63,871 nt of DNA from Mesotaenium endlicherianum (taxonomy: Eukaryota). The translations under genes were made by a program, and so were the position numbers. Shown piece by piece: positions 9,079 through 55,547 of the stretch; positions within the stretch are counted from its first letter, which is position 1; each line of letters begins with the position of its first letter. The notes under the pieces are model-generated. The model saw nothing but the letters and a program-made list of their open reading frames with translations, did not search any database and was not told the origin of the DNA. The DNA lies in assembly GCA_009602735.1 (NCBI GenBank), contig WELA01003365.1, positions 377,491 through 441,361 of the forward strand, given 5' to 3'.

Positions 9079-9095
9079 GCTCTAGTAGCTCAGTT

Positions 9096-9128
<33 letters not shown>

Positions 9129-9152
9129 AAGGTTCAAATCCTTCCTGGAGCG
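9079..9152 (+). tRNA. tRNA-Asn (anticodon GUU), intronless
   Basis: GCTCTAG/CTGGAGC acceptor stem; D arm with A box (TAGCTCAGTTGG); anticodon arm TGTGG-CTGTTAA-CCACA; T loop GGTTCAAATCC (B box); discriminator G; AT-rich upstream flank. Confidence 0.97.
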
Positions 9153-9169
9153 CTTATTGCAGACAAGCA

Positions 9170-9671: not shown

Positions 9672-12600
9672 ATGCGGCCCCCAAGAGGTGGTGGTTCTTT
9701 CAGGGGAGGGGGGGGGAGCTTTAGAGGTGGCGGAGGTGGATTTAGGGGTGGGAGAGGTGGTTTTGGTGGACGAGGTGGTGGAGGCTATAATGACGGACCT
9801 CCAGAGCAAGTCGTAGGTAAAGCCTCAGTAATTTCCTGGTCGGACCTCGTGTACGACGGGAAATAAGGTGCCATTGTATTGTTACTTGCGCCACAGTGTC
9901 TTTTAATGTATAGCACGCGTGAGTGCACAAACTTCTCAAGTTTGAATGGAGACTACGGGGTTTCATACTGAGAAATGAAATGGCTATGGGTTTTCTAGGA
10001 TGTACTAAGCCGGTAGAGGAGCTTGGCTATGGTCTAGTGTCTGTATTGTCTCAATTGTTGTGTACTCTCGTGGCAGTCTGCGAATCTCACATTCAACTCT
10101 TACAAGCTCCATGTGGGTGTTTTCGTTGACATCCCATTTCACCTCATTGTGGGAAGTACATTGTCTGGTTGCTGAATTTCACATGCTGTTGTAGACGTGC
10201 TGTTAAAGAGCTGATGACTTGCCCTGTGTCAAAGATTGCTGTTGTGACTGTCGTATCGCGGCAGCATTGTCTTTGTAAGGAGGGTATTTCTAAGGGATTA
10301 GTAGTGCCATACTGCAGGATTTTTGTCTGAATTTTCCTGTGGCTGTGGTTACAATGGTTTGGAGCACAGTGTTCCTAGTGTCCAGAAGGCTTGAGATATC
10401 TTTGAAACGAAAAGCATATGATGGAAAGCAGTTGACTGGCTATACAGTAGCTCTCTTACAAATTCTGGTGCTTGAATCATCTGTCGCATGTTCTGACCCC
10501 TTGACCACATTTCTTGCTTCTCTTTTCTTCTCAACCCAAAACTCTGAGAACGATCAAGGACAGCATGATTGCTATAAAGTGCCGTGTGAAGCAGGAATGT
10601 GAACTAGTCTGCCCGCGTGGCTATGGTCTCTGTTGCAGAGGTAGCTACCTTCGTGCATGCGTGCGAGGGGGAGGCAGTCACCAAGCTTACAAATGAGAAG
10701 ATTCCGTACTTCAATGCCCCCATCTACTTGGAAAACAAGACACAGATTGGAAAGGTCGAAGAGATTTTTGGGCCCATCAATGAGGCGGTAAGGTTTCACT
10801 GCATTCGTAAGCCATGCTGCCCTACCCCTTGAGGGCTCTTTCTTCACAAGATGCAGCTAGTGCTTCTACGTCGAGGATATAGTCAGCTGCCTGCTTTCCT
10901 CACCTCTATGGCACCCGCGCAGACGCATTATCAAAGTACTCTGAAGTGCAGGCTAAGGTGTGCCAGGCCCTAGTGGGTCCAATTAACCATGTCAGCTTTT
11001 CTAGGGAGGGAGGTGGGGTGGGGGCAGTGCAGGCTGGGCCTTGCGGGCCACTTAGAAGTCCATGTTCTGGTAGATTGAAAGGGTTGTGACTTGCCTTTTG
11101 TTGCAGGCAAGTCCAATACTGTTCTTTAATGGGTTGTGTATGGAGTGCTCTGCAAGAGATTCTGATAATGAGATGTCTGCTTTCCTTGCTTTTGGTGGGC
11201 GCAGTACTTCTCAGTGAAGATGCAGGATGGCATCGTGGCGTCGTCCTATGCGGTTGGTGACAAGTTCTTCATCGATCCCATGAAGCTGCTGCCCTTGCAG
11301 CGCTTCCTCCCGCAAGCCAAGTGCGCTCTCCCTCCCCCCCCCCCTCTCTCCCTCTCTCTCTCTCCCTTGCTCTTTCTCTCTGGCTTCCCCCCTCTACCTA
11401 TGCCCATGAGCAGCTTATCTTTGAACCAGTGTTTGTCCACACTAGCAGAACAGGCGTGCTGAAATATGGCAGTGGACTTCAGTACAAAACACGAAGTGGG
11501 ATGCTTAAACAAAGGATGTACAACAGCTCCACGAATGCCGAGTATGATTTAAGGGACCTCGAAGCCTTGTTGCTGAAGCACCTGAGGAAGCACCTATGCA
11601 GTTAGAGATGTGTACTGGTAATGGCCTATTGTTATGACTCATGTGTGTTGTATTGCCCTGGGTGGGTCATTTGTAGTCATTATGTTTGAACACTGGGTAT
11701 TGCTCTATAGGTCTCTATGAGCTGTGAGTAAGGTGGGAGGGACCAAAGTCGGATCTTAGTCAAATCAGCTCTGCACCTCAATGACTACCTGTGAAGCACC
11801 TCTTAAGGCCTTTGAATCTAAACATCCCCTTCTTATTGACTGATGCTGGTGATAGCGATAGCTGTAATACGTGCCGATTACTGTCTCTGGAGCTTGTTAT
11901 GAGAGGCACTTGGTTGTCTGCATGTTCGGTCTGTGCTCAATTTGTCATGTATATTACCCTGCGTATTACCTTCCAACAGTCCTATGCTTGTTCCTGCAAT
12001 GCAAGTGGGTCGGTCACCGGTATTGTGTGCTCAACAGGTGCTACGCCCTGGGTTAAAATTTCGTATGCTTGCTGGCTGCATCAAAATAAGCTTCTAGCAC
12101 GTAGACCAAGTTGGACTTTGCTATCAAGTGGCAATGAGCAAGGAGAAGTCAAGGTTCATGAAGTGTGAGCAAAACCTTGATGCCAGGGGTGTGATTCCAA
12201 TGCTTTGGTGTGCAGGGGTGAGGGAGGTGGACGAGGAGGAGGCCGTGGTAAGTCCCTTCTTTCGCGCTTTGAAAGATGCTGACATTCTTAGGCACTGCTA
12301 CTGCTCACTGTTTTTAGCAGAGCAGTCGAATCTGATTTACGACAGATGTGGGTCGAGGCTGCGGGGCACGTCTGGTCCGTTGGCACGGCTGACAGACACC
12401 CTTTGAAGCCATTACCAAAGCTTGTTGCTTTCTGAACCTCAATGCTTTTCTCGAAGAGGTTCTTGGGTGGAAACATAGATAGAAACAGCTAGTTTCTTGT
12501 GCTGTCCTGTGTAAGCTGACGTTACAGGCGGCCCTTCTTTGCGATGCTGGATGTGCTTTTCCACCCTGTCTCGTGTCGAGCATTCATGATCTCTGGTCGT

Positions 12601-12865
12601 GAAAATCAGAGGTGCAGATGGTGCATGGCTTACAACATCCTACTTATAATGTAATGCTTGCAATGTGGCGCTTACAGGTGGCCGCGGTGGGGGCAGAGGT
12701 GCTGGTGGCTTCCGCGGAGGGGGCCGGGGGGGAGGCGGCTTCAGGGGTGCTCCCAGGGGAGGAGGTTTCAGGGGCGCCCCTAGAGGGGGAGGTGGCTTCA
12801 GGGGTGGTGGTGGCGGTGGAGGCTTCCGTGGTGGAGGTGGTGGAAGAGGGAGGGGCAGGTACTAG
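9672..12865 (+). CDS. GAR1: H/ACA snoRNP subunit GAR1 (209 aa)
   Basis: Exons 9672-9816, 10639-10787, 11205-11320, 12216-12247, 12678-12865 join in frame. RGG-rich termini flank the core [56 protein letters not shown]...[16 protein letters not shown]. Confidence 0.96.
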
Positions 12866-13481
12866 GCTGGGGTCTGAGAGAGTCTGCTGTAGGTTAGTTT
12901 GTCGAAGGGTGACGAGACTATGGTTATGTGAGCAGACGATTGGAGAGTGGCGGTTCCTGGTTTGTGGAACCTCAGGCTCTTTGCTCAGATGCATTGCTTG
13001 CATGTCCTTCCCAAGCTTAGGACGTGTACATAGAGAATTGGGAGATGTAAGACGACCACTATAATTTTCATACTTTGCAGATTCAAGTCTGAGCGGAAAT
13101 TCTTATCCATCTGTGCACGGTAGGAGAAGCCCCTGAAGATGGGGCAAGGACGTAGAGGCTGTATTTACATGTATGCAGGCTTTTAATGTAATGTTTAGAG
13201 GACACCTTACACTCAGGCAGTATGTCCAAGTTGGTGTGCACTACATCACCAGAACAAGCAGCTACAGGTTTCAAAACGGATTCTGCAGTGCTGAGATCGC
13301 ATGTTTGTGTATCGTACATACACAAAAGGAGGGTATAAGGAACTGGATACAAGGCATGCTGTGTGATAGTCACCCTCACTTCGCCCCAGAACTAAGCATG
13401 CATAAGCAGTAGTATGCCTGACCATCAAATACAGGAACTAAACAAAGTTTGTTCTTCAACCTTCATCTGTTGTAGGACTGA

Positions 13482-13515
13482 AGCAAAAGCAGCAAAAGCA
13501 GCAAAAGCAGCAAAC
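13482..13515. repeat. 9-bp tandem repeat (AGCAAAAGC-type, about 3.5 copies) downstream of ATX1
   Basis: agcaaaagc agcaaaagc agcaaaagc agcaaac. Confidence 0.8.
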
Positions 13516-13704
13516 GCACTACTTAAAGGTGTCAAACACGTAAGTCATCCTATGGCATTAAGAGGGTGAGCGAATTGACCAAAAAATAAAAAACAGAGTA
13601 GTATGTAATAAAGGATAGCTTAAGAAGGTCTTCTCATTTGACAGTCACGAGCACAACTGGGCCTGACGGTAAGGAGCTGCTTAATATACGAACTATAACA
13701 AAGC

Positions 13705-26500: not shown

Positions 26501-27244
26501 TGAAAGGGGCAAAGTGCCCTAGTGGAAGCGTAGTGACTCACGAGGAACAAAGCTAATTGCAATCATACTCAAGAGTGCAGCGGCATACTGCTAAGAAAGC
26601 TTAGGAAAATTACTTGACATTTTGAGTGGCAAGAAACTGCTCACAAATGATGTAGGATGAAAGGCCTTGTCATTACAAACCCGTAGAAATTTACAGAAGT
26701 GAAAACTGATAAGAAACAAAGAAGTTATGCCTATTTATAATTTTCTGCCTAAGTGCTCCCCTCTAGGAGGAAGCTACGGATTTTCCGAAGTGTTCGTCAA
26801 ATCGTCCCTTCCAGAATATTCGTGAGTAAGCCAGATCAGTCTAATCTGACGTGTCGGGCCGAATTGACGTCCACATACATGCATCGACATTACTAGAATA
26901 TTCTATCTTAGACGCGCTAGGCTAAACCGAAACTTCTAGGTAAATCGACCTAGTCGGCACTCCGCGTCAGCCGAACTTACGTGAAGGTTCGAGTTCATTC
27001 TAACGGGCCAGATCGCTCGACGCTGTCGGTCAATCCGACGGTCGCGCTCACCGCGAATTAAGGACAGTCGTCAACCGACCTCAAAACTAATTAAACTTCG
27101 GAAATCCATAACTCTCTCAATACTTGACCAAATTCGATGAATTTTATATCAAAATGACCACAAAAATGCACTCTACACTACTATACAATCAAAACATACT
27201 TTCATGAAACTCAAAAATGCACTTTATAAATCTATGACCTTACA
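26501..27244 (-). repeat. 5' LTR of element B
   Basis: Near-identical to 21034-21777. Confidence 0.95.
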
Positions 27245-28880
27245 CTGAAGCCAGGCACGAAGCGGTGGTAGTAGTTGGCGATCCCAAGGTAGGCCCTTAG
27301 CTGCGAGATGTCAGTGGGCGGCGGGATGCCTGTGATGGCCGAGATCTTGGCCAGCTGCGGTGCCAAGCCACTAGAGGAGAGGAGATGCCCGAGGTACTCC
27401 ATCTCTCGGGTCCCAAAGGTGCACTGCCCTTGATGGCACTTGAGCCCAACGTCCTCCAAGCGGTCCAGGACGGCAGTGATGTGCGCCACGTGCTCCTTGA
27501 ACGTCACATTGAAGACGAGCACGTCATCAATGTAGTACCGGGCAAAAGATAGCCTTGCCAGCTCCTTATCCATGACCCGCTAGAAGGTAGCTAGAGCGTT
27601 CTTCAACCTAAAGAGCATCACCCTCCATGTAATGAATCAGTATATTGCTTGACATAATATTCATTTAAATAATATAGTTAAATAAGTTCAGCCTGCTAAA
27701 CTCTAGTTATATTTAATATCAATTTAACGACTCAGCCGGAAGCAGCATGCTGATGTGAGCTTAAGTCAGCTTGCTGACACATTCTTTGACAGCCAGCTAA
27801 CTTCCGTACTCGGTAGCAGCGAACTGCTTCGAAATGCATCTAAGTGTGGTTTGCTAGATGAATGGCCAGATGACATCCCTATGATGGATGGCGATTCGGG
27901 ATGATGGGAGATGGCGGTGGATTTAGTTAACCGAGGTCCTACCAACGTGGTTAACTCCCGGGTAGGCGGTGCCATCGCACTGGCCGTTGAACAGTAAACT
28001 CATTCCATGTACGTATGCTAGGCATTGCTCTCGAGTTTGGCATTCGGAAACGAGGCCAACTCTCTTGTACAGCTTACTGAGAGAGATCTAAATCCAAGGC
28101 GAGAAGCCATTGATACGCACTGTCTTCTAACCTTGCTTATGTATGAGTTTATTGATTTGCATTATTGATGCTAGTTTACTCGCATTTGACTTACGAGTAT
28201 TATTCACTGCTAGTGTGTTGTCCTTTGCCGTTTAACCAGTTGACGGAAAATACCATACAGATTACTTGCTGATATAAAGATCTTTATCAATTGTTAATCG
28301 CCTATTTGGTAAGTCGATTCATTTCACTCCACTTGTAAAGGCGTTGTGCCCCCAGAACGCTGTCTTGTGCTGGTCCTCCGCCGCAATAGGTATCTGCTTG
28401 AAACCCTGCCTCAAGTCCAGCACCAAGAATTATGTGCACGTGCCAATGTCATCGAAGATCTTGTCAGGGTAGGCATGGGATATTTGTCCTGCTCAGTGAC
28501 CTCATTCAGCTTACGATAGTCACCGCACATCCTCTTCTCAAACCAATTGCCTGAGGCATCCTTCTTTGCCAGCATGACCGTGGGGGCCGCGTAGGTAGAG
28601 GACGACTTCCAAATAAGCTGGTTGTCCTCTAGCTTGCCTGTCTGCGTGCTAATCAAGCCGTCCTCGAAGTGACTGTTGCGGTATCGCTTCTGGAAGATGG
28701 ATACGTCTGACGTGAGGCAGAGCCTCATGGGGTCGCCAGTGTAGCGCCCCAAGTCATGCATACTACTGGCAAAGCACGCACTGCGCCGAGCATCGAGCAT
28801 CTCAGTCAGCTGCGCTGCCTGCTCCGTGGTAAGGGTCCCCCCCAACTTCCATGTAGGGGCTGCTGGAGATGGTACTTGCC
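27245..28880 (-). pseudogene. Element A reverse transcriptase, split by solo LTR C1
   Basis: KRMCGDYRKLNEVTEQDKYPMP...KTAFWG..YKW|RVMLFRLKNALATF*RVMDKEL...YYIDDVLVF...YLGH...LRAYLGIANYY. Confidence 0.9.
27628..28326. mobile_element. Solo LTR, family C (699 bp)
   Basis: TGTAATGAATC...GATTCATTTCA inverted termini; TSD CTCCA (27623-27627 and 28327-28331); removing it restores the RT sequence. Confidence 0.93.
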
Positions 28881-28964
28881 CTACACCTGTCGCCTCGTGG
28901 GATGTTGCGGCCCTGTGCCCTCCTGTTGGTATTGCCTGTCCGCTGGCAGAGAGCGGCTGGCCTG

Positions 28965-29060
28965 CCTCTGCTCTTGCTGGCATCTGCTGACTCCTGCTGG
29001 CTCCTGCTGGCACGGGCTAGTTCCTGCTGGCTCCTGCTTGCACCTGCCCTGCTGCTGCAA
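28965..29060. repeat. 10-bp minisatellite (CTCCTGCTGG-like) in the DNMT-RT linker of A
   Basis: Repeated ctcctgctgg / ttcctgctgg / ctcttgctgg units. Confidence 0.7.
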
Positions 29061-29321
29061 GCTGTCCCGTCGGAGCCGCCTGCCGGCGTGCCGGAGGGTC
29101 CAGAAAGGAGGAGCGATGCGGCTTCCTGGCCTGTTGTGTCCCCTCCCTGGACCGTCCCCCCCCTAGTGGGCCTGAGTCGGCGTCGGATGTAGGTGGCGTT
29201 GGTAAGGGTGGCGAGGAGGAGCCTGCGGGGCAAGCCCTGCCCTTTGGGAGCGCCAGCGGGTACTGGGTGGAGGGCGAGGGCTGTCGTCCTTGGAAGAGCT
29301 ATCATCGGGTGCGTCCATGCG

Positions 29322-30320
29322 TTAAGGGAGCTCGGGATGGCCGGCCTCCCGATAAAGGGGAGTCAAGGCTTGCGTCTGCAAAAGAAGCCAAGTCAAGACA
29401 TTGGCATCAATGGCCTGCCCCAAGAGCCGAACGCGGTTGACCTTGGTGATGCCATCCACCTGGGTCAGATGGGCCGGAAAGCCCAAGGCGCGCTCCATCT
29501 CCACGGCGCGCGGCCGTCTGTACAGGCCAAAAGAAAGGTCGATGATCATGCCGCGAGCTGCACCAATGTAGGCGGCGCTGTTGTAGCGTCTGACGAAAGT
29601 AGGCAGAGCGTGCGTGACATTGCCGAGCACCTCACACTGGGCCTGCAACAAATGGGGCAAGGCTGTAACGCGCTGGGCCAGCCGGGCGACGTCGAGGATG
29701 AAGTCGACGTTGCGCGTGTGGCGGGGGTGCGCGGCTGCAAGGGCCTCCAGCGTGCCTGGCAGGGCTAGGTTGGTGAAGTAGGCGCGCACGCGGTGGGCAA
29801 AGGACCCAATCTGCGCGGCGTCGATGACGGCCTCGCTTCCGAGGTAGCTGCTGCAGAGCTCAAAGTCGGCGCAAACATTGGCTCGTTCGTCGCCGCACAC
29901 CGCTACATTTTCCAAGACCCACGCGAGGGAGTGAGGTGGTTGTCGCGTCTCCACCAGGTTGAGGACGCGGAGGAGGTGCCAGAAGAGCGCTGTGCGAGGG
30001 TCGCTGAGGGCACCGCTGCGACCTGCGATGGAATACCCGTGGCATGCCCAACCAGCAATGACGAGGTCCACTGGGCCGAGGCGCGTCACGTGCTCGTTGG
30101 TGATGTTGCGGATGTCCATGGGCCAGTTAGTCTGCGCGTGGCGGAAGGCGCGTGCAGGAAAGATGTCGGAAAAGCGCTTGTGACAGAGCGCCATCTGACG
30201 TCGAGCAACCTGCTGTGCCTCTAGGTCAGGGTCGACGTAGACGTAACGTCAAACGGGAATGCCAGCCTGCAGGGTCGCGATGCCGACGAACATCTCCACC
30301 AGAACGATGCCACCAGGTCG
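29322..30320 (-). pseudogene. C5-cytosine DNA methyltransferase domain encoded inside element A pol
   Basis: Motifs in canonical order: I VLVEMFVGIA; II YVYVD; III DIRNI; IV DLVIAGWACHGYS; VI WVLENV; VIII AHRVRAYFTNL; IX EMERALGFP; X RLLGQAID. In-frame TGA at 30249-30251. Confidence 0.92.
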
Positions 30321-32299
30321 CTCATCCAGCTGGTTTGTGTAGATCGGCGTCGGCAGGGGCCGAAGGCCCATGGCAGGATGGCCTGGCTCCGCGGTGGGCG
30401 GGTACGTACGGGCGATGCTGAACTGGTGTGGGGCCATGTCGGGTGCAGCGACGGCTCGGTCGGCGTTGTCACGCGTAAGATGTGAAAAAGGCCCAGCCAG
30501 CGGCTGGGGCTGGGTGACGCGCGCATGGGCCTGATATTGACGCCGCCTGTCTTGAGCGTCCTGCAAGATGTGCGAGGGAATAGGTGCCGAGCATGACTGG
30601 GCTGTGCGCACGTAGGTGAGCTGCCACAAGCGCCTGGCCTCGCGATCCTGTGCGTGAGAAGTGGTCCTGCACGTACGCCAGCTGGTCCAAAATCGGGCAC
30701 TGAGGCAGGTACGGATGCGGATCGTAGTACGCCTGCTGGCGTCGGTGGAACGGGAGGTCCGCCAAGTTGGCGCTGTCGGCTGGCTTTGTGCGGTAGGCAA
30801 ACTGTCGGACGCGCAGAGGCTGGCAGGGCGCCAGCTGCATCCGGGCACGTAGCGGAGGGTGGAGCGGCTGCTGATCGTCTGGACGCTGGTGGCAGCGCGC
30901 GAGGTCAGCAACGGCTGCAGAACGGCGACCGGGTCGGGAGTCGCATGCGCGGGTGCTGGTGCGGGCCACTTTGGAGGGAGGTGGACCGCCAGGCCTGTCA
31001 TCGGCAAAGGGGTTGCAAGGAGCGGGCGGGCGCTGGTCGTACAGCGCGTGGAAGGCAAACGTGGTGGACTGCGGACCGCCCTCCCGGTCGTTTGCCTCGT
31101 GGTAGGACGGGGTGGCTGCCCAATTGCGGCTGTTGCGATAAGGCGGCGTGAGGGAACGGCCACGTTTGGGTGGCGGCGTGAGGCTGCGCTCGCTGCGCAG
31201 GCTGCGCCTGAGCTGCGGCGGGGTGACAGCACGTCGCCGGCCACACACCCTGCGGCCTAACTTTGGTTGTAGGACCAAGCGTACAAGGACGGCTGTCATC
31301 ACAGTGCCCGCGACGTTGGCCACTGCGCGGGCTGCCTGAGGACCAGTGCTAAAGGTGGCGGAGGTGGCTGCGGAGAATGCGTAGGCTCAAGACCAATTGT
31401 TGCTGGTGCCTCCGCCATACAGGTGATGCGAGAGGTTGCGACAACTGGCGTCTGTGGAGCAATCATGCTCGGTACTGCATCGGGGCCCTACGGCACAGCG
31501 GTAGGCTGCGTTGGACCTGGCGGACGCTGGGCGGCTGAACCCAAGCAATCCGGCCGAGGGAGTGCGGCCAAACCCTGGAGGTCCAGCAGGCCTGTCAAAG
31601 CCTATTGGCCCTATCAGCGTGCTGAACCCTGGGGGTCCCGTGGGCCTACGACGAATGCGAGCAACGAGAGTGACAGGCCGCGCCTGCGACTCAGTCGGCT
31701 CGTAGGGCTCCTGTGGCGCACGCCCGTACGACTCGTCGTCTGTCAGTTGGTCATAGGCTGCCTGACGTATGGCCTCCTCCTCTGAAGTGGTCGTGCGGCG
31801 GTCGGAGTCGTCGGTGTGCATTGGTGACGAAGGTGACTGCGACGCCATCAGGAATCGCATGGCCACTCCAACTCGTACCTCTTGCCGCAGGGGGACGTCG
31901 GATTGGGCGTCTGGCGAGCGAGCCCTCTTGCGCAGAGGCTGCACAGGAGCAGGCGGCAGGCTCGTGCCCGCGGCAGCGGCAAGGACCTTGTGGGCCCTAG
32001 CAGCTGTGGCCAATGCGATGGCGGCAACATTGGCGGCTGCGGTCGCTGCTGCTGTAATCTGGCGCATCGCGGCATGCTGTGCTGCGTAAATGTGCACGGA
32101 CTCCCGCGCCTGCGTCGTCAGTAGCTCTTCCTGCTGCTGTGGGGTAAGGTGGAGCTCTGCAGTGGGTAGCTTTGGCTCCTTATCCTGGGGCTGGAGCAGG
32201 TTGGCCCCGACAAAAACGTCGTCCTCCTCTGGGCCGCCCTTGCGAGTCTGACGCCAAACGGGTCCTCATCGTCGCCGAGCGCCGTAGAGGCTGAGGTGG

Positions 32300-32760
32300 G
32301 ACGCCGATCCAGAATGTCCAGCGGCAACGAGGCCGTGCGCGTGCATCCTGTGCGCCAGTCGGGCCGATAGTGTGCCCGCTCCGTCCAGTTACCCACCGCT
32401 GCTCCAATGGGGAAGAGCACGTCCTGCCCCAAGAGGACGTCGAAGGTGTCAGAGCGCGTCACCAACGCGTGACGATGAAATGTTGTCTTGTCCTCGATCT
32501 TGGGCCGAAAGGTGAAGACGAGCGCCAGCCGAGTGCGCCCCCTCACGAACTTGGATGTGCCTGATCCGCATGGACGAATCCTCCAGGTCAGCTGAGGAGA
32601 GGCCCAGCTGTCGGAGATAGTTGTGACTGATCAAAAATGGCTGTGTGCCGGTGTCAAACATGATGTGCTGTGGGGCCTGCTTGTTGACCAGCACGATCCC
32701 TTGCGCGTTGTCCAGAAACGTCTCGTTAGGGCTGCTGATCAGCCTGCGCTTGTGCGGGGG
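32300..32760 (-). pseudogene. Element A aspartic protease
   Basis: IMFDTGTQPFLIS (DTG) and downstream FDVLLGQDVL after a frameshift. Confidence 0.8.
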
Positions 32761-33873
32761 TCGAGCGGGGGCTGAGAGCGTCGCAGTGGAAGCCCCTGCT
32801 GCCGGCTTGTCTGTGTCGGTGCGGGCCCCCGAGGCGCGGGAACGAAGCATCAGCTAGGCGGCCTGCCGGGTTGCCTCCAACGTCACGCCAAGCTCGGCAA
32901 ATGACTTTGCCGGCATGCGGTGCAGTGCCAACGTTAGCACCTCGGCGCTCAGCTGTACCGTCATCACTAGCAACGCGAGTGCGTGCGATGCTGGCGTGAC
33001 TGGCGCTGCTGGCGGGTCCAAGACGCAAAAGGAGCGGGGTAGGCGCGGGGCTTCCTCCATACGCTGTCCCTGGTCGGGTCCGTCGCGCTTGGGCGCGCCT
33101 GATGCTCGACCCGCAGTTGCCACAAGCGGACGTTCGCGAGTAGCCTCGTGAGCTGCCGGGCCGCTGCCAAGTGGCCGTGTCCGTTCGCACCAAAAAAGAG
33201 CTGCGGCTGTTGTTCCTGGCACCTGGCGCTGCTGCAAGTGGGGGCACCGATGCGTGCTTTGCCAGGGGCGCTGGCATCCTGGCGAGGGTGAGCGCCGGTG
33301 CGAGTCCCGTCGCCGGCGTCGGGATGGCAGCAGGGACCTGCAAGACCCCTGCTAGATAGCCAGGTGGCGCGCCAGGGTCGCCCCTGAGGTGCACCAGGCG
33401 GGCTGTCGATCCGCCGGCGCCCTCTCCTGCGTAGGGCCCGTGCAATGCTTGGGCGTCCCGCTTCCGCGCGAGAAGGTCCTGCGCAGCCTCGGCAACGCAG
33501 CTTGGGGGCTGCCGGGATTTTGCGCGCAGCCAGGATTCAAGCCCTGGCTGAGCGATGCCGTGCGCAAGCCGTCGGGCGGCTTCCTGATGATCGGGTCGTG
33601 CGGCGGTGTCGTAGACGTCCCCACCTGGTGGATAGTGCCGACACCCTCGGCCGTCTGCAATCAAGCCCGATCGAGCCACCTGCGCACGCCAAGTGGCGGC
33701 GCCTGAGAGCAGCTGTCAACTGAAGCTGCGAAGGCTGGCGTGCCAGGAGCGAGGAGGCCAGGTCGCCGAAAGGGACCTTGCGACGCCGTCCTTGGCAACT
33801 GACCAGCGGCAACGCGGATGGTGATGGGGCGTGACGCCTCGGATGCCGTGTGCATGCGAAGTTGCGCCAGCTG

Positions 33874-35594
33874 CTAAATCCTGCTACTGGCAGCTAGTAG
33901 CAGGCGGCTGTGCTCCTGTCGCTCCCTTGTGCGCAGATCTGTGCACGCGTGCACGGTGCGCGTGCCAAGACTCGTCGCGACCTGCGCCGCCGTCTGGCAG
34001 GCTAGCAGGGGGCTGCCACTTGCCGCCAGGCCGGCCATTGCCGGTCCTGCCGCCGATAGCAAGGCCGTGCAGGCCAGAGTCGTCACCTGCGTCGGTGCTG
34101 GCTGCGCTGGCGTTGGGGACGCCTCGTCGCCGAGACGGATTGCTATGTCGGCCAACTGGGCTGCGCCTGATGGGTGCTGGCCAGCTGTCAGCCGGTTGAA
34201 GCGTGTCCGTTGGCCATTGGCAAAAACCCTAGCTGGGAGCATGCTGCTGACAGGAGCGTACAGAGCTCCGCACGCATCATAGCCGGTGCTGGCGTCGCGA
34301 GCGTGTAGGCGGGCAATCTCGGCCTCGGCCGCTAACAGTGCGTCGTTAAGGGCGTCGTAACTGTAGTGATCCTCGCCGGGCGTCATCACGGCGCTGGTCG
34401 TGGCCGTGGCCGCCGTCATCGCGAGTCGTCCGCCAGTGTGCGGATTACGCATGTCCTGCTGGCCTGCTGCACCGGAGGGTCTGATCCAAGCGCGCCCGTT
34501 TTCGAGGTCGCGCTTCTTTTGCAGGTAGACGATTTGCAAGTGGCCGGCTTTGCCGCAGTATGTGCAGTTGCCGGGCTTGCCGTTTTGCGCGAGCGTGCAG
34601 TCACGGCAAGAGTGGCCCATCTTCCCGCAAGACCAACAGGGGTTGCTCGTCGTGGAGGCCATCGAGATACGGCCGCGCGACGCTCCGCGCTACTGAGTCT
34701 GTTGGGGCAGCTGCGCGCGCTGAGCTGCTGGGGCTGGCGTGCAGGGGCTGGTCGCATTGTGGAAGATGGCAGCACCGTGGCCTCCTGCCGTATGCTTGTA
34801 GATGCGAGGCCCATACGGTTGCTGATGTTGCTCCGTGTGGCTACCAGTATCTGCTTCTCAACTGAGAGGTAAGTGTCCTCCAGTGAGTATCCGGAACCCT
34901 TGCGGTCGATGAGGGGGGCGATAGCTCTCTCCCTTAGACGCGGCTCCACGGCACGCAAGAAGATCTCTGCTGCCTCTCAATCAGTAACCGTGCCCACGTC
35001 TCTTCGTAGGTGGGTCAGACGTCGGTACATCATGCGGATCATCTCATTTTTGCGGCGGAAGAAGTGGTGCAGCTCATACACCTTCTCCTCCATGGCGGCC
35101 TGGAACTCCTGTCTGAGGACGTCCCAGAAGGCCTGCACTGGGTCAGCTTGTGGGGTCTGAATGTCCCCCACCAGCTCCGTGCGCGTGAGGATCTCGGCTG
35201 CCTTCTCTTGATAGGTGTCGCGAGCCTCGTAGAGAAGGTAACGCATGAGCGTGCCAAACACCTGGCGCTTAGTGAGCGCGGGCGTCTTGAGCTTAGCGTT
35301 CTTGAAGTCAGCCTCGAACTCGGAGATAGTGTCGTCCAGATCACAGGTGCCCGGCCTGCCGCTGAAGCGGAAGAGGGAGGCCCTGTCTACCTTCGTATCC
35401 TGGTCACCTGCCATGGAGGACGAGGGATCGTAGTGAGTCCACTGAAGAGGTGGCTCATGGACGGCAGTAGGCTGAGGGGGCACCGGGTGCTCCTTCTCAG
35501 GGGGATCAGTGTTAATATTGAGATCTGAGTCTGAGTCCTCGCCATTAACCCCTTCGTAGTAAAGCTAATGAGATAGCCCACTACGGGTAGGCAT
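33874..35594 (-). pseudogene. Element A gag with two CCHC knuckles
   Basis: Starts MPTRSG at 35594; capsid-like FRFSG..., FFRRKNE; knuckles CWSCGKMGHSCRDC and CTYCGKAGHLQIVY; internal stops at 35565 and 34977. Confidence 0.82.
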
Positions 35595-35630
35595 ACGCTG
35601 AAGACTCTAATTGCGAGCAGGCAAAGAGAT

Positions 35631-35644
35631 ATCTTTTTAAAAGT
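35631..35644 (-). promoter_or_regulatory. Non-tRNA primer-binding site of A, complementary to the predicted transcript 5' end
   Basis: - strand ACTTTTAAAAAGAT pairs with ATCTTTTTAGAAGT (35949-35936): 13 Watson-Crick pairs plus one G:U. Confidence 0.65.
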
Positions 35645-36579
35645 AAGGGAGTGTTTACTCTCCAGAGTGAGCACCTCAAGATTGTAATCTGGTAGGAGAA
35701 CAACTAATGAATTCTGGCTAAAAAGATCACTGGAAGCACATCATGATCTTCAAGAGTAGTCCTACGGCAGGGTTTAAGCTGTGACTTTGCTCACCACTTG
35801 TGAAGTTCCTCAAGTGACAGGAAGCCTGGAGGGCTTGCTCTTCACAAGAGAGAGACTAAGTGGTCTTGAAAACACAAGAGATAAAAGTGTAAGCTATGCT
35901 GACAATCTCTGTGACTTACAACTGGCATAATGGGGACTTCTAAAAAGATGTCCTTCTAAGGGCATCTACTGCTATATACTCCCTGCAGAATCGGCGCGGA
36001 AGGCGGCGGATACAATGCACACAGTCCCACCAGGATGCTTTCGTAGGTCCACGAAAGTAGAGGCAAAGCAAGTACTAGCTCTCCTATTGGCTAAGCACAA
36101 CACACACCAATCAAATATAGTGCAAGCAAGTGGATGCATGGCTCTCGTTGGCGGAGCTTACCTCGAGTAATGCTTTCTAGATAATGCCTCAAAAGTAGAT
36201 GGGAAACGTGAGGAAGCTTCCTCTAAGAATGAGTGATGCAGTCACCGAGTTATGGCTCAGGTGGTGCTCATATACTATGCTAATACATGCTAAGTGTACT
36301 TTATCAAGCTCGCGGATTTGTATGCTAATGGCTAGAGGTCTTTGGAGTCGCGAAGAGCCAACAATGTCACCTTTGGGCACATTGAGTCATAAAGTGGCCT
36401 TTGGCGGGATTCGCTCGGGGCCGGTAGGTGGCGCAAAGTAGATCGCGGATATCTCGCTCGATACTTGTCCAAATGGCGTGCAACCGATGTCGTTCGGAAA
36501 GTGACGCGACGCTCTACATTTGGGCGACTAGGAATGCTAGTAAAGGTCAACATATGAATGCGTGCAGCAAGGTCAAAGT
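35644..36579 (-). repeat. 5' LTR of element A (outer end not resolved)
   Basis: Matches the 3' LTR blocks; contains - strand TATATA at 35978-35973 and a CA initiator at 35950/35949. Confidence 0.8.
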
Positions 36580-36699
36580 CGACCTTCTTAGGTCGATGGT
36601 CGACGCACGTATGTTTTGGCAGGGTTGACGGTCTCGACCTAATGAGTCATGACAACAGTAACTCATTCTATTTACGTATGCTAGGTATGCTATCGACCA

Positions 36700-38269: not shown

Positions 38270-38975
38270 TGTAATGAATCAGTATATTGGATAGATATAA
38301 TATTCATTTATACATAATAATTAACTAACGTAAGCTTGTTGAACTCTAGGTAATATTTAGTTTGCTGGATATTTGATACTAAGTTGAATGTCTTAGCCGA
38401 GAGCAGCAGGCTGAAGTCAATTAGGTCAGCCTGTTGACTTAGGTCAGCTTGCTGACACATTCTTTGACAATAAACTGGCTGCCGTACTCGGCAGCACCGA
38501 ACTTTTTAGCTATGCATCTAAGTGTGGTGTGCTAGATGAGTGGCCAGATGACACCCCTAAGGTGGATGGCAATTCGGGATGATGGGAGATGGCTGTGGAT
38601 TTGGTTAGTCGAGGTCCTACCAACGTGGTTAACTCCCGGGTAGGCGGTGCCATTGCACTTGCTGTTGAACAGTAAATTCATTCCATGTACATATGCTAGG
38701 TATTGCTCTCGAGTTCGGCATTCGGAAACGGGGCCAACTCTCTTATACTGCTTACTGAGAGATATCTGAATCCAAGGCGAGAAGCCATTGATACGCACTG
38801 TCTTCTAGCCTTGCTTATGTATGAGTTTATTGATTGCATTATTGATGCTAGTGTACTTGCATTTGACTTGCTAATATTGCTCACTGCTAGCGTGTCAACA
38901 TACTTTAAAGATTACTCGCTGATATAAAGATTATTATTGATTGTTAATCGCCTATTGGTAAGTCGATTCATTTTA
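38270..38975. mobile_element. Solo LTR, family C (706 bp)
   Basis: Homologous to 27628-28326; TSD TAGAG (38265-38269 and 38976-38980); terminal CA mutated to TA. Confidence 0.9.
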
Positions 38976-41954: not shown

Positions 41955-43813
41955 ATGGGAGAACTTTCTCGTGTACTGTTGTGTGCAGACAGTTCATCAA
42001 TGTCCCATCACCACATGCACATGTCATTCTACTGGAGCGAAAAGGCCACCATCCTCTTCGACCAATGGACAACGCAGTCCATGGCGTCCTACTGGGCGGC
42101 AATGCTGTTGACTTTCCTCTTCTGCATCCTCCACGAGTGGTTGACTACAAGCAGAGTGAGGGTGGCAGCCCCAGCAAGGACACCTTTGATGAAAGACGAA
42201 ATGGTGGAACGCTCCGACTCAGAGCAAGGCCCAATGCCCTTGTAATTATTCCCACCCCAGCCTCCACCTTTTCTCCCCAACTTATCCCTTGTCAGTGTCT
42301 CATTCTTGCTGTCCTGTACTGTCTGTCGCATACTTCCTAATTTATAGCAGCTGCCTCTGTCCCCCTTACTGCTTCAGACGCATACTTTGACAATATATTC
42401 CTCAATAATCTTTGGGCAAACTTCATATCCCTAACGCACCCAATTAACCACCGTTTACCCACCCACTGCCCCCTCCCCCNNNNNNNNNNNNNNNNNNNNN
42501 NNNNNNNNNNNNNNNNNNNNNNNNNNNNNNNNNNNNNNNNNNNNNNNNNNNNNNNNNNNNNNNNNNNNNNNNNNNNNNNNNNNNNNNNNNNNNNNNNNNN
42601 NNNNNNNNNNNNNNNNNNNNNNNNNNNNNNNNNNNNNNNNNNNNNNNNNNNNNNNNNNNNNNNNNNNNNNNNNNNNNNNNNNNNNNNNNNNNNNNNNNNN
42701 NNNNNNNNNNNNNNNNNNNNNNNNNNNNNNNNNNNNNNNNNNNNNNNNNNNNNNNNNNNNNNNNNNNNNNNNNNNNNNNNNNNNNNNNNNNNNNNNNNNN
42801 NNNNNNNNNNNNNNNNNNNNNNNNNNNNNNNNNNNNNNNNNNNNNNNNNNNNNNNNNNNNNNNNNNNNNNNNNNNNNNNNNNNNNNNNNNNNNNNNNNNN
42901 NNNNNNNNNNNNNNNNNNNNNNNNNNNNNNNNNNNNNNNNNNNNNNNNNNNNNNNNNNNNNNNNNNNNNNNNNNNNNNNNNNNNNNNNNNNNCCCCCCCA
43001 ACTCAGTCAAAATCTATGTGTTCACATTTCTTTTACAGTCACCAACTCCCAGCCTCAACTCTAAGGCCCCTCCTGCAGCCAATGTATCACAAGGGTTCAC
43101 CCTTGGTTGTCACGCCAAACCATACTTTGAGGCTTACAAACGTGCTGCTACACATGTTAGTCTGGCGTATGCTGCTGTGCATGAAAACATTCAGCTTCAG
43201 AGAGTGTCACTAACCCCTCAGCCGCCTTGAAACAATCTATTCAGACTAATTTCTACCCTCCCAAACGAAGCACCTCACGAAGTTGCTGAGGTTTTGTTTT
43301 CCCATTAATATTGTCGCACCGAGCACTTTCAACAGTAGTCTACAAGGGTCAGAAGCAGACCCTTTTTGCTGGCACCAGATCTCCAGGGGTACGAACAAAA
43401 GAGCAGGGTGATGCTGTTATCTCCTCGCATGTCGCTGCCCTGCATCTAAAATTGCATCCCCAGCAGGTGCCCAGCATGTTACGATGAAATGAGTGTGCCC
43501 CTCCCACACAAGATGTTGCAGTGCTCAATACTAGGAATTGCCGTGAAAAGCGGGCGAGGCTTATAGGATGTGGCGCTTGTGTCAACCTATCTGCAGGTTG
43601 TCCGATGGGCAAGCACCCGTAAGCGGAATCAGGCGAGCTGGCGCAACGCTTCTGTATGGCCTGAATGCGGCCAGCAGCTACATTATTATGTTGATAATTA
43701 TGACCTTCAATATGGGCTTATTCTTTAGCGTTGTGTTAGGTTTATCTACTGGCTTCTTTCTCTTTGGGTTCTCGAGAGTAGGATCTTCTTCTCAGCTTTG
43801 TCACGCCTCTTAG
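41955..43813 (+). CDS. COPT: CTR/COPT family copper transporter
   Basis: Exons 41955-42241 and 43597-43813 join in frame. His/Met-rich MSHHHMHMSFYW..ILFDQW N-terminus; MLIIM-x12-GLSTG is the MxxxM-x12-GxxxG signature; C-terminal LCH. The start could be the Met at 42000. The intron contains an N gap. Confidence 0.93.
42480..42992. other. Assembly gap (N run) in the COPT intron
   Basis: Run of N flanked by poly-C. Confidence 0.99.
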
Positions 43814-52560: not shown

Positions 52561-53555
52561 CAACTAGTCTTGTCAAAGCACATACTCATCTACAGCACAG
52601 GTCTGATGGTGATTAAAAAGCTAGGTTGTAACAGAGAAAGATGAAGGAATAGAAACTTAACTGTAATTGAGGAGGTGAGGGCTAATATACCATAAGATAC
52701 AGAAGAATGTTACCATATGTTGCATACATAATTAACTGCTACAGCATCCGATACGTTCAAGAGCAGACGAGCCTGCATATGATATGTAGCCTATCAATTG
52801 CAAGAGTCACATTATAAATAACAGTACTGTAACAGGAAAAAACCTTGTGGTCAGATTAACTACTCCGAAATTGCACATGGCTTTGAACTTAAGCTATTAT
52901 AGGAAAGAATGCTATAATCTCCTGAGATTTGTCTAACAACTGGTGCCCTGCACATGACCAAGCGTACACATTGCCCATGCCTCAGAGTGCACTTACGGTG
53001 CCAATCTCTGGACAAAGCGAAGAGCCCTATCGATCATACTCCTTGTTCTACTCGTTCTAAGATCACTGCCAGATCGAAGCGCAAGTGCTAACAAATCAGG
53101 GAGCGAGCGATATGCACCAACGTGTGTGCATCGACCGAATCAACATATAGGAGAGCACCCACGGCGGTCCTTGCCAGCATGAATAAAGCAAGATTAGCTT
53201 AGTTCGCCTCTTTGCGTAGCACATGGATTACAGTCTTCATCCTTGCTTGTTTGTGTCACCACCTTCTCCATCGTGCAATCTGCCTTTATTGTCGTTACAA
53301 TACTAGTCCTGATTGTGTAGTTGTTCTGCTGCTGAATACCGGACGTGTTTGCGATTTCATTTTTTAAGTATCCAAGCCCGTAAGTTCCTACCAGAAACGT
53401 TTTTTTGCTTATACTACGACAGAGTAGTTGTTCCTCCCGACGGCAGGATGTAACACAATAACGCGTAGTTTTTATTGCAAAAGCCACGATAGTAAGTCTA
53501 CTATGAAATGCCGGACGAGTTGTTGTGAAATTTCTTCTGGAGACTAACAAAGACC

Positions 53556-55513: not shown

Positions 55514-55547
<34 letters not shown>

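What the first reader, a model, noticed from the sequence alone, without database searches (positions are those of the whole stretch)
29322..30320. Cytosine-5 DNA methyltransferase embedded in a Gypsy polyprotein
Seen: motifs I, II, III, IV, VI, VIII, IX and X in non-permuted order, on the same strand as pol, between protease and RT, with no introns or flanking TSD. R-x-R-x-Y-F-T-N-L and E-M-E-R-x-L-G-F-P are DNMT3-like signatures. The catalytic motif reads GWAC rather than the usual PC, motif I seems to lack a few residues, and there is one stop. Known: such captures have been reported but are rare. Inference: an integral, protease-released enzyme of this family.
Basis: partly seen in the sequence, partly recalled or inferred. 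Interest (0 to 1): 0.8.

Follow-up and report, generated by a model that had tools for sequence, protein, structure and literature searches.

The report
Dead Gypsy retrotransposon carrying DNMT3-like methyltransferase
This is a long-dead, twice-interrupted copy of a jumping gene whose replication polyprotein includes a DNMT3-type DNA cytosine methyltransferase domain and a PHD finger; elements of this kind were already described in a freshwater green alga, and this is a very divergent further member.

Summary
On the minus strand, 29322-30365 encodes a DNMT3-type C5 cytosine methyltransferase domain: PF00145 at E 5.5e-9, DNMT3A as best solved structure by sequence and by fold. It lies between protease and reverse transcriptase.

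The host element is about 11 kb net (18209-36579): gag, protease, linker, DNMT, RT, RNase H, integrase, PHD finger. It matches full-length database polyproteins domain for domain. A young chromovirus and a solo LTR, each with a 5-bp target duplication, interrupt it.

This copy is dead:
- one in-frame TGA inside the domain
- a 5-residue gap and a Gly-to-Val change at the SAM loop
- Ala in the catalytic loop
- frameshifts throughout

Dozens of sister contigs in the same organism also carry the domain.

The kind is in print: Gypsy-DNMT3 of Klebsormidium nitens (de Mendoza 2018), including the odd A-coding-B-A-B repeat layout seen here. This lineage is at most 39% identical to any database protein.

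The family's catalytic loop reads GW[E/P]C, so the missing proline is partly a family trait.

Verdict: a real feature, a new member of a known kind, of moderate interest.

The parts
35644..36579 (-). 5' direct repeat 'A1' of the DNMT-bearing element. A 471-bp foreign insert lies at 35765-36235.
   Evidence: About 91% identical to 18289-18745. K2P distance 0.076, 33 differences over 457 sites.
33874..35564 (-). gag region with two CCHC zinc knuckles (34597-34638 and 34540-34566). It is split over frames and has an in-frame stop.
   Evidence: ORF list. zf-CCHC at E 0.0033, below the Pfam cut-off. CCHC patterns located.
32184..32853 (-). Aspartic protease (DTG at 32647-32655), split between two frames.
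   Evidence: PF13975 at E 0.0016, below cut-off. tblastn matches to the protease parts of P0001, P0010, P0013 and P0017. DTG located.
30366..32183 (-). GC-rich (0.656) low-complexity linker between protease and DNMT. It is about 540 aa longer than in P0001 and is also present in sister contigs.
   Evidence: Sister contigs cover 30321-30873, 30713-31223 and 31599-32180 (table 8).
29322..30365 (-). DNMT3-type cytosine-5 methyltransferase domain. Motif I at 30261-30308, TGA stop at 30249-30251, GWAC at 30036-30053, ENV at 29904-29915, RVRAYFTNL at 29766-29792, EMERALGFP at 29475-29501.
28349..28878 (-). Reverse transcriptase, N-terminal part, with a frame change near 28468. Upstream lies a 10/30-nt tandem repeat at 28970-29047.
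   Evidence: tblastn to P0014 and P0017 in two frames. Tandem repeat.
27628..28326 (.). Nested solo LTR of a very high-copy family. It has TG..CA ends and a 5-bp target duplication, CTCCA, at 27623-27627 and 28327-28331.
   Evidence: Sister contigs skip it, joints 27627 to 28349 (table 5). Other copies lie at 38270-38973 and 16788-17134.
27245..27627 (-). Reverse transcriptase, C-terminal part (YIDD at 27523-27534).
   Evidence: RVT_1 at E 2.2e-7. tblastn to P0017 residues 1493-1621. YIDD located.
21034..27244 (-). Nested, nearly intact chromovirus: gag, PR-RT, RH-INT and chromodomain. It has 745-bp LTRs and a 5-bp target duplication, CTGAA, at 21029-21033 and 27245-27249.
   Evidence: Pfam hits. 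LTRs 98.4% identical. K2P 0.016 and the target duplication.
20746..21033 (-). RNase H, N-terminal part. It resumes exactly where the chromovirus ends.
   Evidence: tblastn to P0017 residues 1618-1713.
19025..20791 (-). RNase H C-terminal part, then integrase (H2C2 zinc finger at 19997-20113, rve core) and its tail.
   Evidence: RT_RNaseH at 4.7e-17, Integrase_H2C2 at 8.2e-16, rve at 9.8e-10. tblastn to P0017 residues 1713-2181. H2C2 pattern located.
18842..19021 (-). PHD finger at the C-terminal end of pol. It is in frame with the integrase tail, after a TGA at 19022-19024.
   Evidence: PF00628 at E 8.2e-13. Cys/His pattern at 18884-19018. Sequence read.
18209..18822 (-). 3' repeat block: B1 (18742-18822), A2 (18289-18745), B2 (18209-18289). 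Together with A1 this gives the layout A-coding-B-A-B.
   Evidence: The two B copies are 93-95% identical, and no third B copy exists in the window.

Best explanation
Window 18209-36579 (minus strand) holds a decayed copy, about 11 kb net, of a Gypsy-type retrotransposon whose pol frame carries a DNMT3-type cytosine methyltransferase domain between protease and reverse transcriptase and a PHD finger after the integrase; in intact relatives the domain is likely made as part of the Gag-Pol polyprotein and is predicted to methylate the element's own new DNA copy or its landing site, but here it is broken.

Shown:
- the domain, its position and its order among the other pol domains
- the two nested insertions
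- the damage to this copy
- many sister copies in the same organism
- a large family of related polyproteins in green algae

Inferred:
- that the domain is cut out by the element's protease
- that it is active in intact members
- that its substrate is the element's cDNA (my odds about 0.4), rather than host chromatin at the integration site chosen with the PHD finger (about 0.3), or something else

The excess of G/C-to-A/T differences in this copy against most of its sisters suggests that, after insertion, it decayed as methylated and silenced DNA does.
For: Domain identity: PF00145 at E 5.5e-9. DNMT3A at 2.7e-15 by sequence and 8e-23 by profile. The 33 rows printed (ranks 1-50) are all DNMT3A/B/C chains, best E 1.2e-18, from a model with pLDDT 89.8.

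Integral to pol: tblastn of the uninterrupted 2188-aa P0017 hits the window in the order protease, DNMT, RT, RT, RNase H, integrase. P0017, P0167 and P0164 are single ORFs with CCHC, DNMT, RVT_1, RNase H and integrase. The K. nitens protein GAQ93235.1 also has the order gag, protease, DNMT.

Nested insertions explain the gaps: the chromovirus has the target duplication CTGAA and the solo LTR has CTCCA. Sister contigs join straight across the solo LTR.

Sister copies: 468 contig pieces of run X2 lie on the 1.2-kb domain at 85% identity or more. Up to 40 different contigs cover a single site.

Decay of this copy:
- a TGA in the domain
- departures at five columns that are conserved across 138 relatives, namely motif I G to V, loop E/P to A, Q to H, W to F and R to M
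- a 5-residue gap after motif I
- coding spread over all three frames
- A-repeat divergence K2P 0.076, against 0.016 for the nested chromovirus
- at 74 sites the majority of sister-contig depth differs from the window; the window has A or T where they have G or C at 46 of these, and the reverse at 9

Repeat layout: A-coding-B-A-B, as stated for KnitGypsy-Dnmt3 in the Fig. 4c legend and the peer-review file of PMC5890265.
Against: No enzymatic activity is shown for any member of this lineage. In PMC5890265 the K. nitens domain gave no detectable methylation in yeast, which the authors call inconclusive.

No intact copy from this organism was seen, and no whole genome is held.

No target-site duplication, TG..CA ends or tRNA primer site were found for the DNMT-bearing element itself. 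Its exact ends and its replication mode are therefore unsettled.

The protease and zinc-knuckle Pfam hits are below their curated cut-offs.

In the tree the window is a long branch (0.73). It sits outside the RT-RH-DNMT-INT clade but is not firmly joined to any one protease-DNMT-RT group.

The high pLDDT comes from the family alignment and does not show that this damaged copy would fold.
Confidence: 0.85

Rival explanations
1. The DNMT stretch is a fragment or retrocopy of a host DNMT3 gene that happens to lie inside a nest of unrelated transposon fragments.
For: The region is a transposon nest with at least three other elements. The domain's nearest solved relatives are host enzymes, DNMT3A/B/C.
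Against: The window follows the single ORF of P0017 in domain order on one strand. The nearest relatives, at 36-39% identity, are polyproteins, whereas rodent DNMT3C is at 27%. Sister contigs carry the same linker-DNMT junction. The domain shares family traits that the one host DNMT3 aligned (rodent DNMT3C, P0009) lacks: GW[E/P]CQ, ALPT and ERER.
Confidence: 0.03
2. The domain is a working, domesticated methyltransferase gene of the host.
For: The catalytic Cys, the ENV Glu and the R-x-R motif are kept. The model is confident.
Against: There is an in-frame TGA. The SAM loop is damaged and has a 5-residue gap. No start or separate gene structure is present, and there are frameshifts on both sides. 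The copy differs from the majority of its sisters mainly by G/C-to-A/T changes.
Confidence: 0.02
3. The element is a DIRS/Ngaro-like retrotransposon that integrates by tyrosine recombinase, not a Gypsy element. The split repeats A-coding-B-A-B suggest this.
For: The repeat layout is the one typical of DIRS-like elements (PMC5890265). No target duplication and no primer binding site were found.
Against: The pol carries Gypsy-type RT_RNaseH, an H2C2 zinc finger and an rve DDE integrase, in Gypsy order. No tyrosine recombinase turned up in the minus-strand frames of at least 100 aa that carry the element's domains; shorter frames and the other listed frames were not scanned. The 2018 paper describes the same mix for the K. 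nitens element and files it under Gypsy.
Confidence: 0.05
4. Same element, different job. In active members the DNMT acts on host chromatin at or near the landing site, steered by the PHD finger. It would damp the element's own expression or blend the insertion into methylated surroundings, rather than methylate cDNA inside the particle.
For: A histone-reading PHD finger is encoded in the same polyprotein. It accompanies the DNMT in most of the RT-RH-DNMT-INT relatives: 65 proteins have the full RT-RH-DNMT-INT-PHD order. Animal DNMT3 also couples its catalytic domain to a PHD-like reader (recalled, not tested here).
Against: Nothing here tells the substrate. The 2018 authors favour cDNA methylation for pol-embedded DNMTs. 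In this architecture RT, RNase H and integrase lie between the DNMT and the PHD finger.
Confidence: 0.3

Closest known systems
KnitGypsy-Dnmt3 of Klebsormidium nitens (de Mendoza et al. 2018, PMC5890265; passages, section 11, Fig. 4 legend and peer-review file read)
   Same: An unrearranged, intronless DNMT3-type domain sits inside the Pol ORF of an element with Gypsy domains. The DNMT follows the protease, as in GAQ93235.1. The repeats are laid out A-coding-B-A-B.
   Different: Only 32-34% identical in the DNMT domain, and not paired with it in the tree. A PHD finger ends pol here, while the word PHD does not occur in the paper's main text. The supplementary figures with the K. nitens drawing could not be read. 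This copy is dead.
Unnamed Gypsy polyproteins of green algae with the order RT-RNase H-DNMT-integrase-PHD, for example CEUSTIGMA_g2191.t1 of Chlamydomonas eustigma and MNEG_11595 of Monoraphidium neglectum
   Same: The same DNMT family, at 27-36% identity, with shared motifs GW[E/P]CQ, ALPT and ERER. A PHD finger ends pol.
   Different: The DNMT sits between RNase H and integrase, not between protease and RT. These DNMTs form one clade with 100% SH-aLRT support, and the window lies outside it.
SymbioDIRS-Dnmt3 of Symbiodinium (PMC5890265)
   Same: A DNMT3-type domain in a retrotransposon Pol, with the A-coding-B-A-B repeats. Two tested copies methylated CG de novo in yeast.
   Different: They have a tyrosine recombinase and no DDE integrase. 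They are DIRS class, in a dinoflagellate host, and the paper infers an independent capture.
Catalytic domain of animal DNMT3A/3B/3C (for example PDB 6f57, 6u8p, 8tci)
   Same: Best match by sequence and by fold, with TM 0.77-0.81 normalised by target length. Motifs are in the same order. RxRxFW-type and EMER-GFP motifs are shared.
   Different: About 22-27% identity. A longer stretch lies between motifs VIII and IX. There are no PWWP or ADD domains. It is embedded in a polyprotein. The proline of the PC loop is replaced.
Retrotransposons with chromatin-reader domains: chromoviruses and PHD-bearing elements, as summarised in PMC6673714 (passage read)
   Same: A histone-reader module at the C-terminal end of the integrase, thought to steer integration.

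Membership tests
C5 cytosine DNA methyltransferase, DNMT3 type | Significant match to the DNA_methylase profile (PF00145) above the curated cut-off | tested here: met
   E 5.5e-9, 36.3 bits against a cut-off of 22.
C5 cytosine DNA methyltransferase, DNMT3 type | Motifs I-X in unpermuted order, unlike DRM | tested here: met
   Collinear alignment to DNMT3A in two stretches, to relatives and DNMT3C, and full-length fold alignment.
C5 cytosine DNA methyltransferase, DNMT3 type | Catalytic Cys of motif IV and Glu of ENV (motif VI) | tested here: met
   Both are present in the window and in 138 of 138 relatives.
C5 cytosine DNA methyltransferase, DNMT3 type | Pro of the 'PC' dipeptide in motif IV | tested here: not met
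   The window has Ala. Of 138 relatives, 70 have Glu, 56 Pro and none Ala. Most sister-contig depth differs from the window at that codon.
C5 cytosine DNA methyltransferase, DNMT3 type | Intact SAM-binding loop (motif I, F-x-G-x-G type) | tested here: not met
   Val replaces the first Gly, where 102 of 138 relatives have Gly and none has Val. A 5-residue gap follows.
C5 cytosine DNA methyltransferase, DNMT3 type | Closer to DNMT3 than to other DNMT classes | tested here: met
   Profile against the PDB: DNMT3A 8e-23, DNMT3B 4e-20, DRM 8e-11, HhaI 3e-9, DNMT2 4e-6; no DNMT1 chain is among the listed matches. No tree with DNMT1, DNMT5 or plant DNMT3 was made.
C5 cytosine DNA methyltransferase, DNMT3 type | Open reading frame and enzymatic activity | tested here: not met
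   TGA at 30249-30251. Activity cannot be tested with these tools.
Ty3/Gypsy LTR retrotransposon | Pol order protease, RT, RNase H, DDE integrase, with Gypsy-type RT_RNaseH and H2C2 | tested here: met
   The order holds once the two nested insertions are set aside.
Ty3/Gypsy LTR retrotransposon | gag with CCHC zinc knuckle | tested here: met
   Two CCHC patterns. The Pfam zf-CCHC hit is only E 0.0033, below cut-off.
Ty3/Gypsy LTR retrotransposon | Two plain LTRs with TG..CA ends, a 4-6-bp target duplication and a tRNA primer site | tested here: not met
   The direct repeats are split A-coding-B-A-B. No TG..CA ends, target duplication or primer site were found. Both nested elements do show these features, so the method works.
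Streptophyte Gypsy-DNMT3 (KnitGypsy-Dnmt3) | Unrearranged, intronless DNMT3-type domain within the Pol ORF of an element with Gypsy domains | tested here: met
   Definition taken from PMC5890265 section 9.
Streptophyte Gypsy-DNMT3 (KnitGypsy-Dnmt3) | Repeat layout like DIRS: A-coding-B-A-B | tested here: met
   A1 at 35644-36579, B1 at 18742-18822, A2 at 18289-18745, B2 at 18209-18289. Paper: Fig. 4c legend and reviewers' file.
Streptophyte Gypsy-DNMT3 (KnitGypsy-Dnmt3) | Close sequence kinship with the K. nitens copies | tested here: not met
   GAQ93235.1 (P0054) is 32-34% identical and is not sister to the window in the tree.
Streptophyte Gypsy-DNMT3 (KnitGypsy-Dnmt3) | Purifying selection on the DNMT among copies (Ka/Ks below 0.2 in the paper) | not tested
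   No full sister sequences from this organism were available.

The most novel reading that the evidence does not exclude
This copy is the trace of a third deep branch of a Gypsy superfamily that spans the green lineage. The superfamily carries a complete epigenetic module, a DNMT3-type writer plus a PHD reader, in two architectures: DNMT after the protease, or DNMT before the integrase.

Half of its members have swapped the catalytic-loop proline for glutamate. That points to a changed catalytic loop, suited perhaps to a substrate such as newly made cDNA.

Only the K. nitens tip of this superfamily is in print. Its breadth would reopen the question of how often plant and algal DNMT3 genes and transposon DNMT3s have exchanged. 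It includes at least 150 clusters at 50% identity, with members in Closterium, Chlamydomonas eustigma and Monoraphidium.
Probability: 0.35. Interest if true: 0.6.

Novelty: new member of a known kind. Interest (0 to 1): 0.35.

Why it matters
Cytosine methylation is the host's main weapon against transposons, so a transposon that encodes its own de novo methyltransferase is a paradox. Only one paper has examined it experimentally, and only in two hosts.

This window adds three things:
- a divergent lineage, amplified to dozens of copies and since decayed, in another organism
- the DNMT travelling together with a histone-reading PHD finger
- a family-wide catalytic loop that lacks the canonical proline in half of its members

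Together with the database relatives found here, this suggests such elements are much more widespread in green algae and their relatives than the literature says. It also gives natural, intact family members whose activity and target context could be tested.

For annotating this genome the practical message is simple. The DNMT-like stretch is transposon debris, not a host methyltransferase gene.

Tried and rejected
Whole genome: none is held for this window. Copy counts, intact copies and Ka/Ks were therefore out of reach.

Protein word search at similar length found nothing. The 'longer' search and the exhaustive search were needed.

Earlier findings of this scan:
- By place and by sequence they returned nothing.
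- By words they returned notes on similar elements in other genomes. These were used as context only.

Naming the host:
- Rfam and ARAGORN gave only one tRNA-Asn.
- The ESM Atlas search with the chromovirus integrase gave mixed phyla and no usable lead.
- Run and organism names are coded, and I did not try to decode them.

RNA:
- No RNA holder was listed for 28325-36600.
- Three RNA runs with the same species label (X5, X8, X11; 1.0-1.4 billion letters read from each) laid 0 reads on 29250-30450 at 85% likeness.
- The tool marks this as no test, because no other stretch was laid to show that the organism is in those runs.

Relatives' DNA:
- With protein P0010 it found 26 pattern matches but no relative.
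- The repeat layout could therefore not be checked in relatives.

Stop codon in sister copies: one search listed only 40 of 74 majority-differing sites, and none of those 40 lies in the stop codon. This leaves the question open.

Sequence context of the window's A/T-for-G/C sites: among the 29 transition sites listed, 11 were CG, 10 CHG and 8 CHH. No context preference can be claimed.

Two Pfam calls failed because my coordinates held stops. One search repeated the scan for two of the six stretches (PHD and integrase tail) and dropped the others.

Considered and rejected: host gene fragment, domesticated gene, assembly chimera and DIRS-class element (see rivals).

The 1357-aa open frame at 53529-57599 is low-complexity with no Pfam hit and is unrelated to the finding.
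Full report
**1. The observation**

The frame 29322-30248 (308 aa) continues upstream in the same frame, across a single TGA at 30249-30251, into a stretch that holds motif I.

Evidence that it is a DNMT3-type domain:
- The 308-aa part hits Pfam DNA_methylase (PF00145) at E 5.5e-9, 36.3 bits against a cut-off of 22.
- It hits DNMT3A chains of the Protein Data Bank at E 2.7e-15, in two collinear stretches covering motifs IV-VIII and IX-X.
- A profile of 19 family members scores DNMT3A at 8e-23 and DNMT3B at 4e-20. Tobacco DRM scores 8e-11, M.HhaI 3e-9 and DNMT2 4e-6.
- A model of the 347-residue domain was built with X at the stop and 35 aligned sequences. It has mean pLDDT 89.8. All 33 rows printed by the Foldseek search (ranks 1-50) are DNMT3A, 3B or 3C chains, at E down to 1.2e-18 and TM 0.77-0.81 normalised by target length. 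The confidence reflects the family alignment, not the health of this copy.

- the catalytic loop reads GWAC (30036-30053)
- ENV is present
- RVRAYFTNL and EMERALGFP align with the matching DNMT3A stretches
- there is one stop
- motif I has a defect

The motif I defect is precise. Val stands where 102 of 138 relatives have Gly and none has Val. A 5-residue gap directly behind motif I is seen against all 11 aligned relatives.

**2. What surrounds it**

tblastn with database polyproteins resolves the neighbourhood. The uninterrupted 2188-aa protein P0017 matches the window in this order, all on the minus strand:

| P0017 part | Window coordinates |
|---|---|
| protease | 32534-32184 |
| DNMT | 30320-29379 |
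| RT | 28812-28349 |
| RT | 27627-27241 |
| RNase H | 21036-20746 |
| RNase H and integrase | 20749-19283 |

Pfam confirms RVT_1, RT_RNaseH, Integrase_H2C2 and rve in the window pieces.

Upstream lie a gag with two CCHC knuckles and a DTG protease. Their Pfam scores are below the curated cut-offs.

Downstream of the integrase tail, in frame after one TGA, sits a PHD finger (PF00628, E 8.2e-13).

Two nested insertions account for the two gaps in pol:
- A nearly intact chromovirus at 21034-27244. It has TG..CA ends, 745-bp LTRs that are 98.4% identical, and the target duplication CTGAA.
- A 699-bp solo LTR at 27628-28326, with TG..CA ends and the target duplication CTCCA.

Contigs of sister copies join straight across the solo LTR (table 5).

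The element is bounded by direct repeats:
- A1 at 35644-36579, itself carrying a 471-bp insert
- A2 at 18289-18745, about 91% identical to A1, K2P 0.076
- A2 is flanked by two copies of an 81-nt repeat B, at 18742-18822 and 18209-18289

Without the insertions the element measures about 10,980 bp. I found no target duplication, TG..CA ends or tRNA primer site for it.

Its GC content is 0.58-0.66. The chromovirus has 0.48 and the flanks 0.44-0.47.

**3. State of this copy**

It is dead.
- Besides the TGA and the motif I damage, it departs from relatives at three further near-invariant columns. These are Q to H after the catalytic Cys (Q in 121 of 138), W to F in RxRxxW (W in 132) and R to M in ERER (R in 128).
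- The coding capacity from gag to RT is scattered over all three frames.
- The A repeats are almost five times as diverged as the LTRs of the chromovirus nested inside (0.076 against 0.016).

Against its sisters, 74 sites in the 1.2-kb domain differ between the window and the majority of sister-contig depth. The window has A or T where they have G or C at 46 of these sites, and the reverse at 9. That is the pattern expected for a copy that decayed by cytosine deamination. This is my inference. The 29 listed transition sites show no context preference.

**4. Sister copies and relatives**

DNA runs X1-X4 are one sample and one study, possibly the source of the assembly.
- 11,500-15,838 contig pieces lay on 27245-36600 at 80% likeness.
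- Up to 40 different contigs cover a single site of the DNMT domain.
- 468 pieces of X2 lay on the 1.2-kb domain at 85% likeness or more: 38 at 99% or above, 75 at 95-99%, 175 at 90-95% and 180 below 90%.

The domain and its upstream linker are therefore family features, not a private accident.

No database protein is more than 39% identical. The exhaustive search found 1534 representatives at E up to 0.001, of which 341 reach 1e-10 and 31 reach 1e-30. Most of the best 150 are long polyproteins.

I classified 218 fetched proteins that carry the domain, using BLAST probes:
- 33 have the DNMT between protease and RT, like the window.
- About 127 have it between RNase H and integrase, usually followed by a PHD finger. 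Of these, 65 have the full order RT-RH-DNMT-INT-PHD.
- 58 show the DNMT alone.

Named members of the first class come from Closterium strains NIES-53, -54, -65 and -68 and from Klebsormidium nitens (GAQ93235.1: gag, protease, DNMT). Named members of the second class come from Chlamydomonas eustigma and Monoraphidium neglectum.

The quick maximum-likelihood tree used 97 rows. I kept all 29 first-class rows and the 2 rodent DNMT3C rows. I sampled 40 of 121 second-class rows and 25 of 35 unclassified rows. Rows covering less of the domain than window residues 60-300 were left out. In this tree the second class forms one clade (SH-aLRT 100). The window lies outside it with the first class, on a long branch of 0.73 that is not firmly tied to any subgroup.

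Across 138 relatives the catalytic loop reads A-G-W-[E 70 / P 56]-C-Q. The missing proline is therefore partly a family trait. Ala itself is private to this copy, and most sister-contig depth differs from the window at that codon.

**5. How it most likely works**

Shown:
- The DNMT is one domain of a Gag-Pol polyprotein in intact relatives.
- Its catalytic Cys and the ENV Glu are invariant across 138 diverged members. This argues that the domain is kept by selection.

Inferred:
- It is released or exposed by the element's protease.
- It methylates the newly made cDNA. This is the reading favoured by de Mendoza et al. for pol-embedded DNMTs (section 11 of PMC5890265). My odds are about 0.4.
- Alternatively it methylates chromatin at the landing site, chosen with the PHD finger. 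My odds are about 0.3.

No activity has been shown for any Gypsy-type member. The K. nitens domain gave no methylation in yeast, which the authors call inconclusive. In this window the domain does nothing; it is a fossil.

**6. Comparison with what is known**

The kind is in print.
- De Mendoza et al. 2018 (PMC5890265; I read passages, sections 9-11, the Fig. 4 legend and the peer-review file) describe KnitGypsy-Dnmt3. It is an unrearranged, intronless Dnmt3 in the Pol ORF of a Gypsy element, with repeats 'the same as that of a DIRS retrotransposon'. The review file spells this out as A1 and A2 flanking the ORFs and two B repeats flanking A2. The window shows exactly that layout.
- A 2026 preprint lists 'streptophytes (Gypsy-DNMT3)' among known cases (passages read).
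- PMC12344493 and PMC6338049 cite the same source (passages read).

What differs here:
- a deep, separate lineage, 32-34% identical to the K. nitens protein
- a host that is probably not K. nitens; this is an inference from the lack of any closer database protein
- the PHD finger, a word absent from the 2018 main text

The main supplementary PDF of that paper was too large to read, and bioRxiv supplements are closed. The K. nitens domain drawing may therefore already show a PHD finger.

My five literature searches found no paper describing the RT-RH-DNMT-INT-PHD elements of chlorophytes or the Closterium elements. Subscription journals are not covered.

Earlier notes of this scan report similar dead elements in moss genomes. 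I did not test those notes. They lower the surprise.

**7. Verdict**

The feature is a decayed member of a known kind, in a new and very divergent lineage.

The most interesting by-products:
- the breadth of the family
- its two architectures
- the writer-plus-reader combination
- the Glu-for-Pro catalytic loop

Noticed in passing
window 21034-27244 (minus strand): A young, nearly intact chromovirus is nested in the RT/RNase H junction of the DNMT element. It encodes gag (310 aa), PR-RT (603 aa), RH-INT (522 aa) and a chromodomain. Its 745-bp LTRs are 98.4% identical, and it has TG..CA ends and the target duplication CTGAA. Four single N's fall in its ORFs.
   Followed up: yes
window 27628-28326; also 38270-38973 and 16788-17134: A 699-bp solo LTR with target duplication CTCCA belongs to an extremely abundant family. 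Summed contig depth is about 1.5 million, against about 50-75 for single contigs in the same runs.
   Followed up: partly
window 35765-36235: A 471-bp insert sits inside the 5' repeat of the DNMT element. The stretch 35669-35980 has about ten times the depth of its surroundings in the DNA runs, so another short high-copy repeat lies there.
   Followed up: no
window 16530-16783 (minus strand): A decayed fragment resembles the integrase tail and the start of a PHD finger of a related element (tblastn to P0023 residues 2376-2445, E 3.7e-7). It lies 1.4 kb beyond the 3' end of the DNMT element and is probably the remains of an older copy.
   Followed up: partly
window 53529-57599 (plus strand): A 1357-aa open frame in a 63% GC, purine-rich, low-complexity stretch (poly-Q, poly-A, GA repeats) has no Pfam hit. 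Whether it is a gene, a repeat or a chance open frame is unknown.
   Followed up: no
window 18209-18822 and 35644-36579: A split direct-repeat layout (A-coding-B-A-B) occurs in an element with a DDE integrase. No target duplication, TG..CA ends or tRNA primer site were found. How such an element replicates and integrates is unexplained.
   Followed up: partly
database proteins, for example P0005, P0019, P0023, P0211, P0224: A large class of green-algal Gypsy polyproteins has the order RT-RNase H-DNMT-integrase-PHD: 65 with the full order and about 127 in all among 218 classified. Half of the whole DNMT family has Glu instead of Pro before the catalytic Cys. My five literature searches found no description of either point.
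   Followed up: partly
window 9079-9153 (plus strand): A tRNA-Asn (GTT) gene is the only Rfam or ARAGORN hit in the window.
   Followed up: no
window 5815-6322 and 42480-42992: Two runs of N (508 and 513 bases) are scaffold gaps. ORFs listed across them are artefacts.
   Followed up: no
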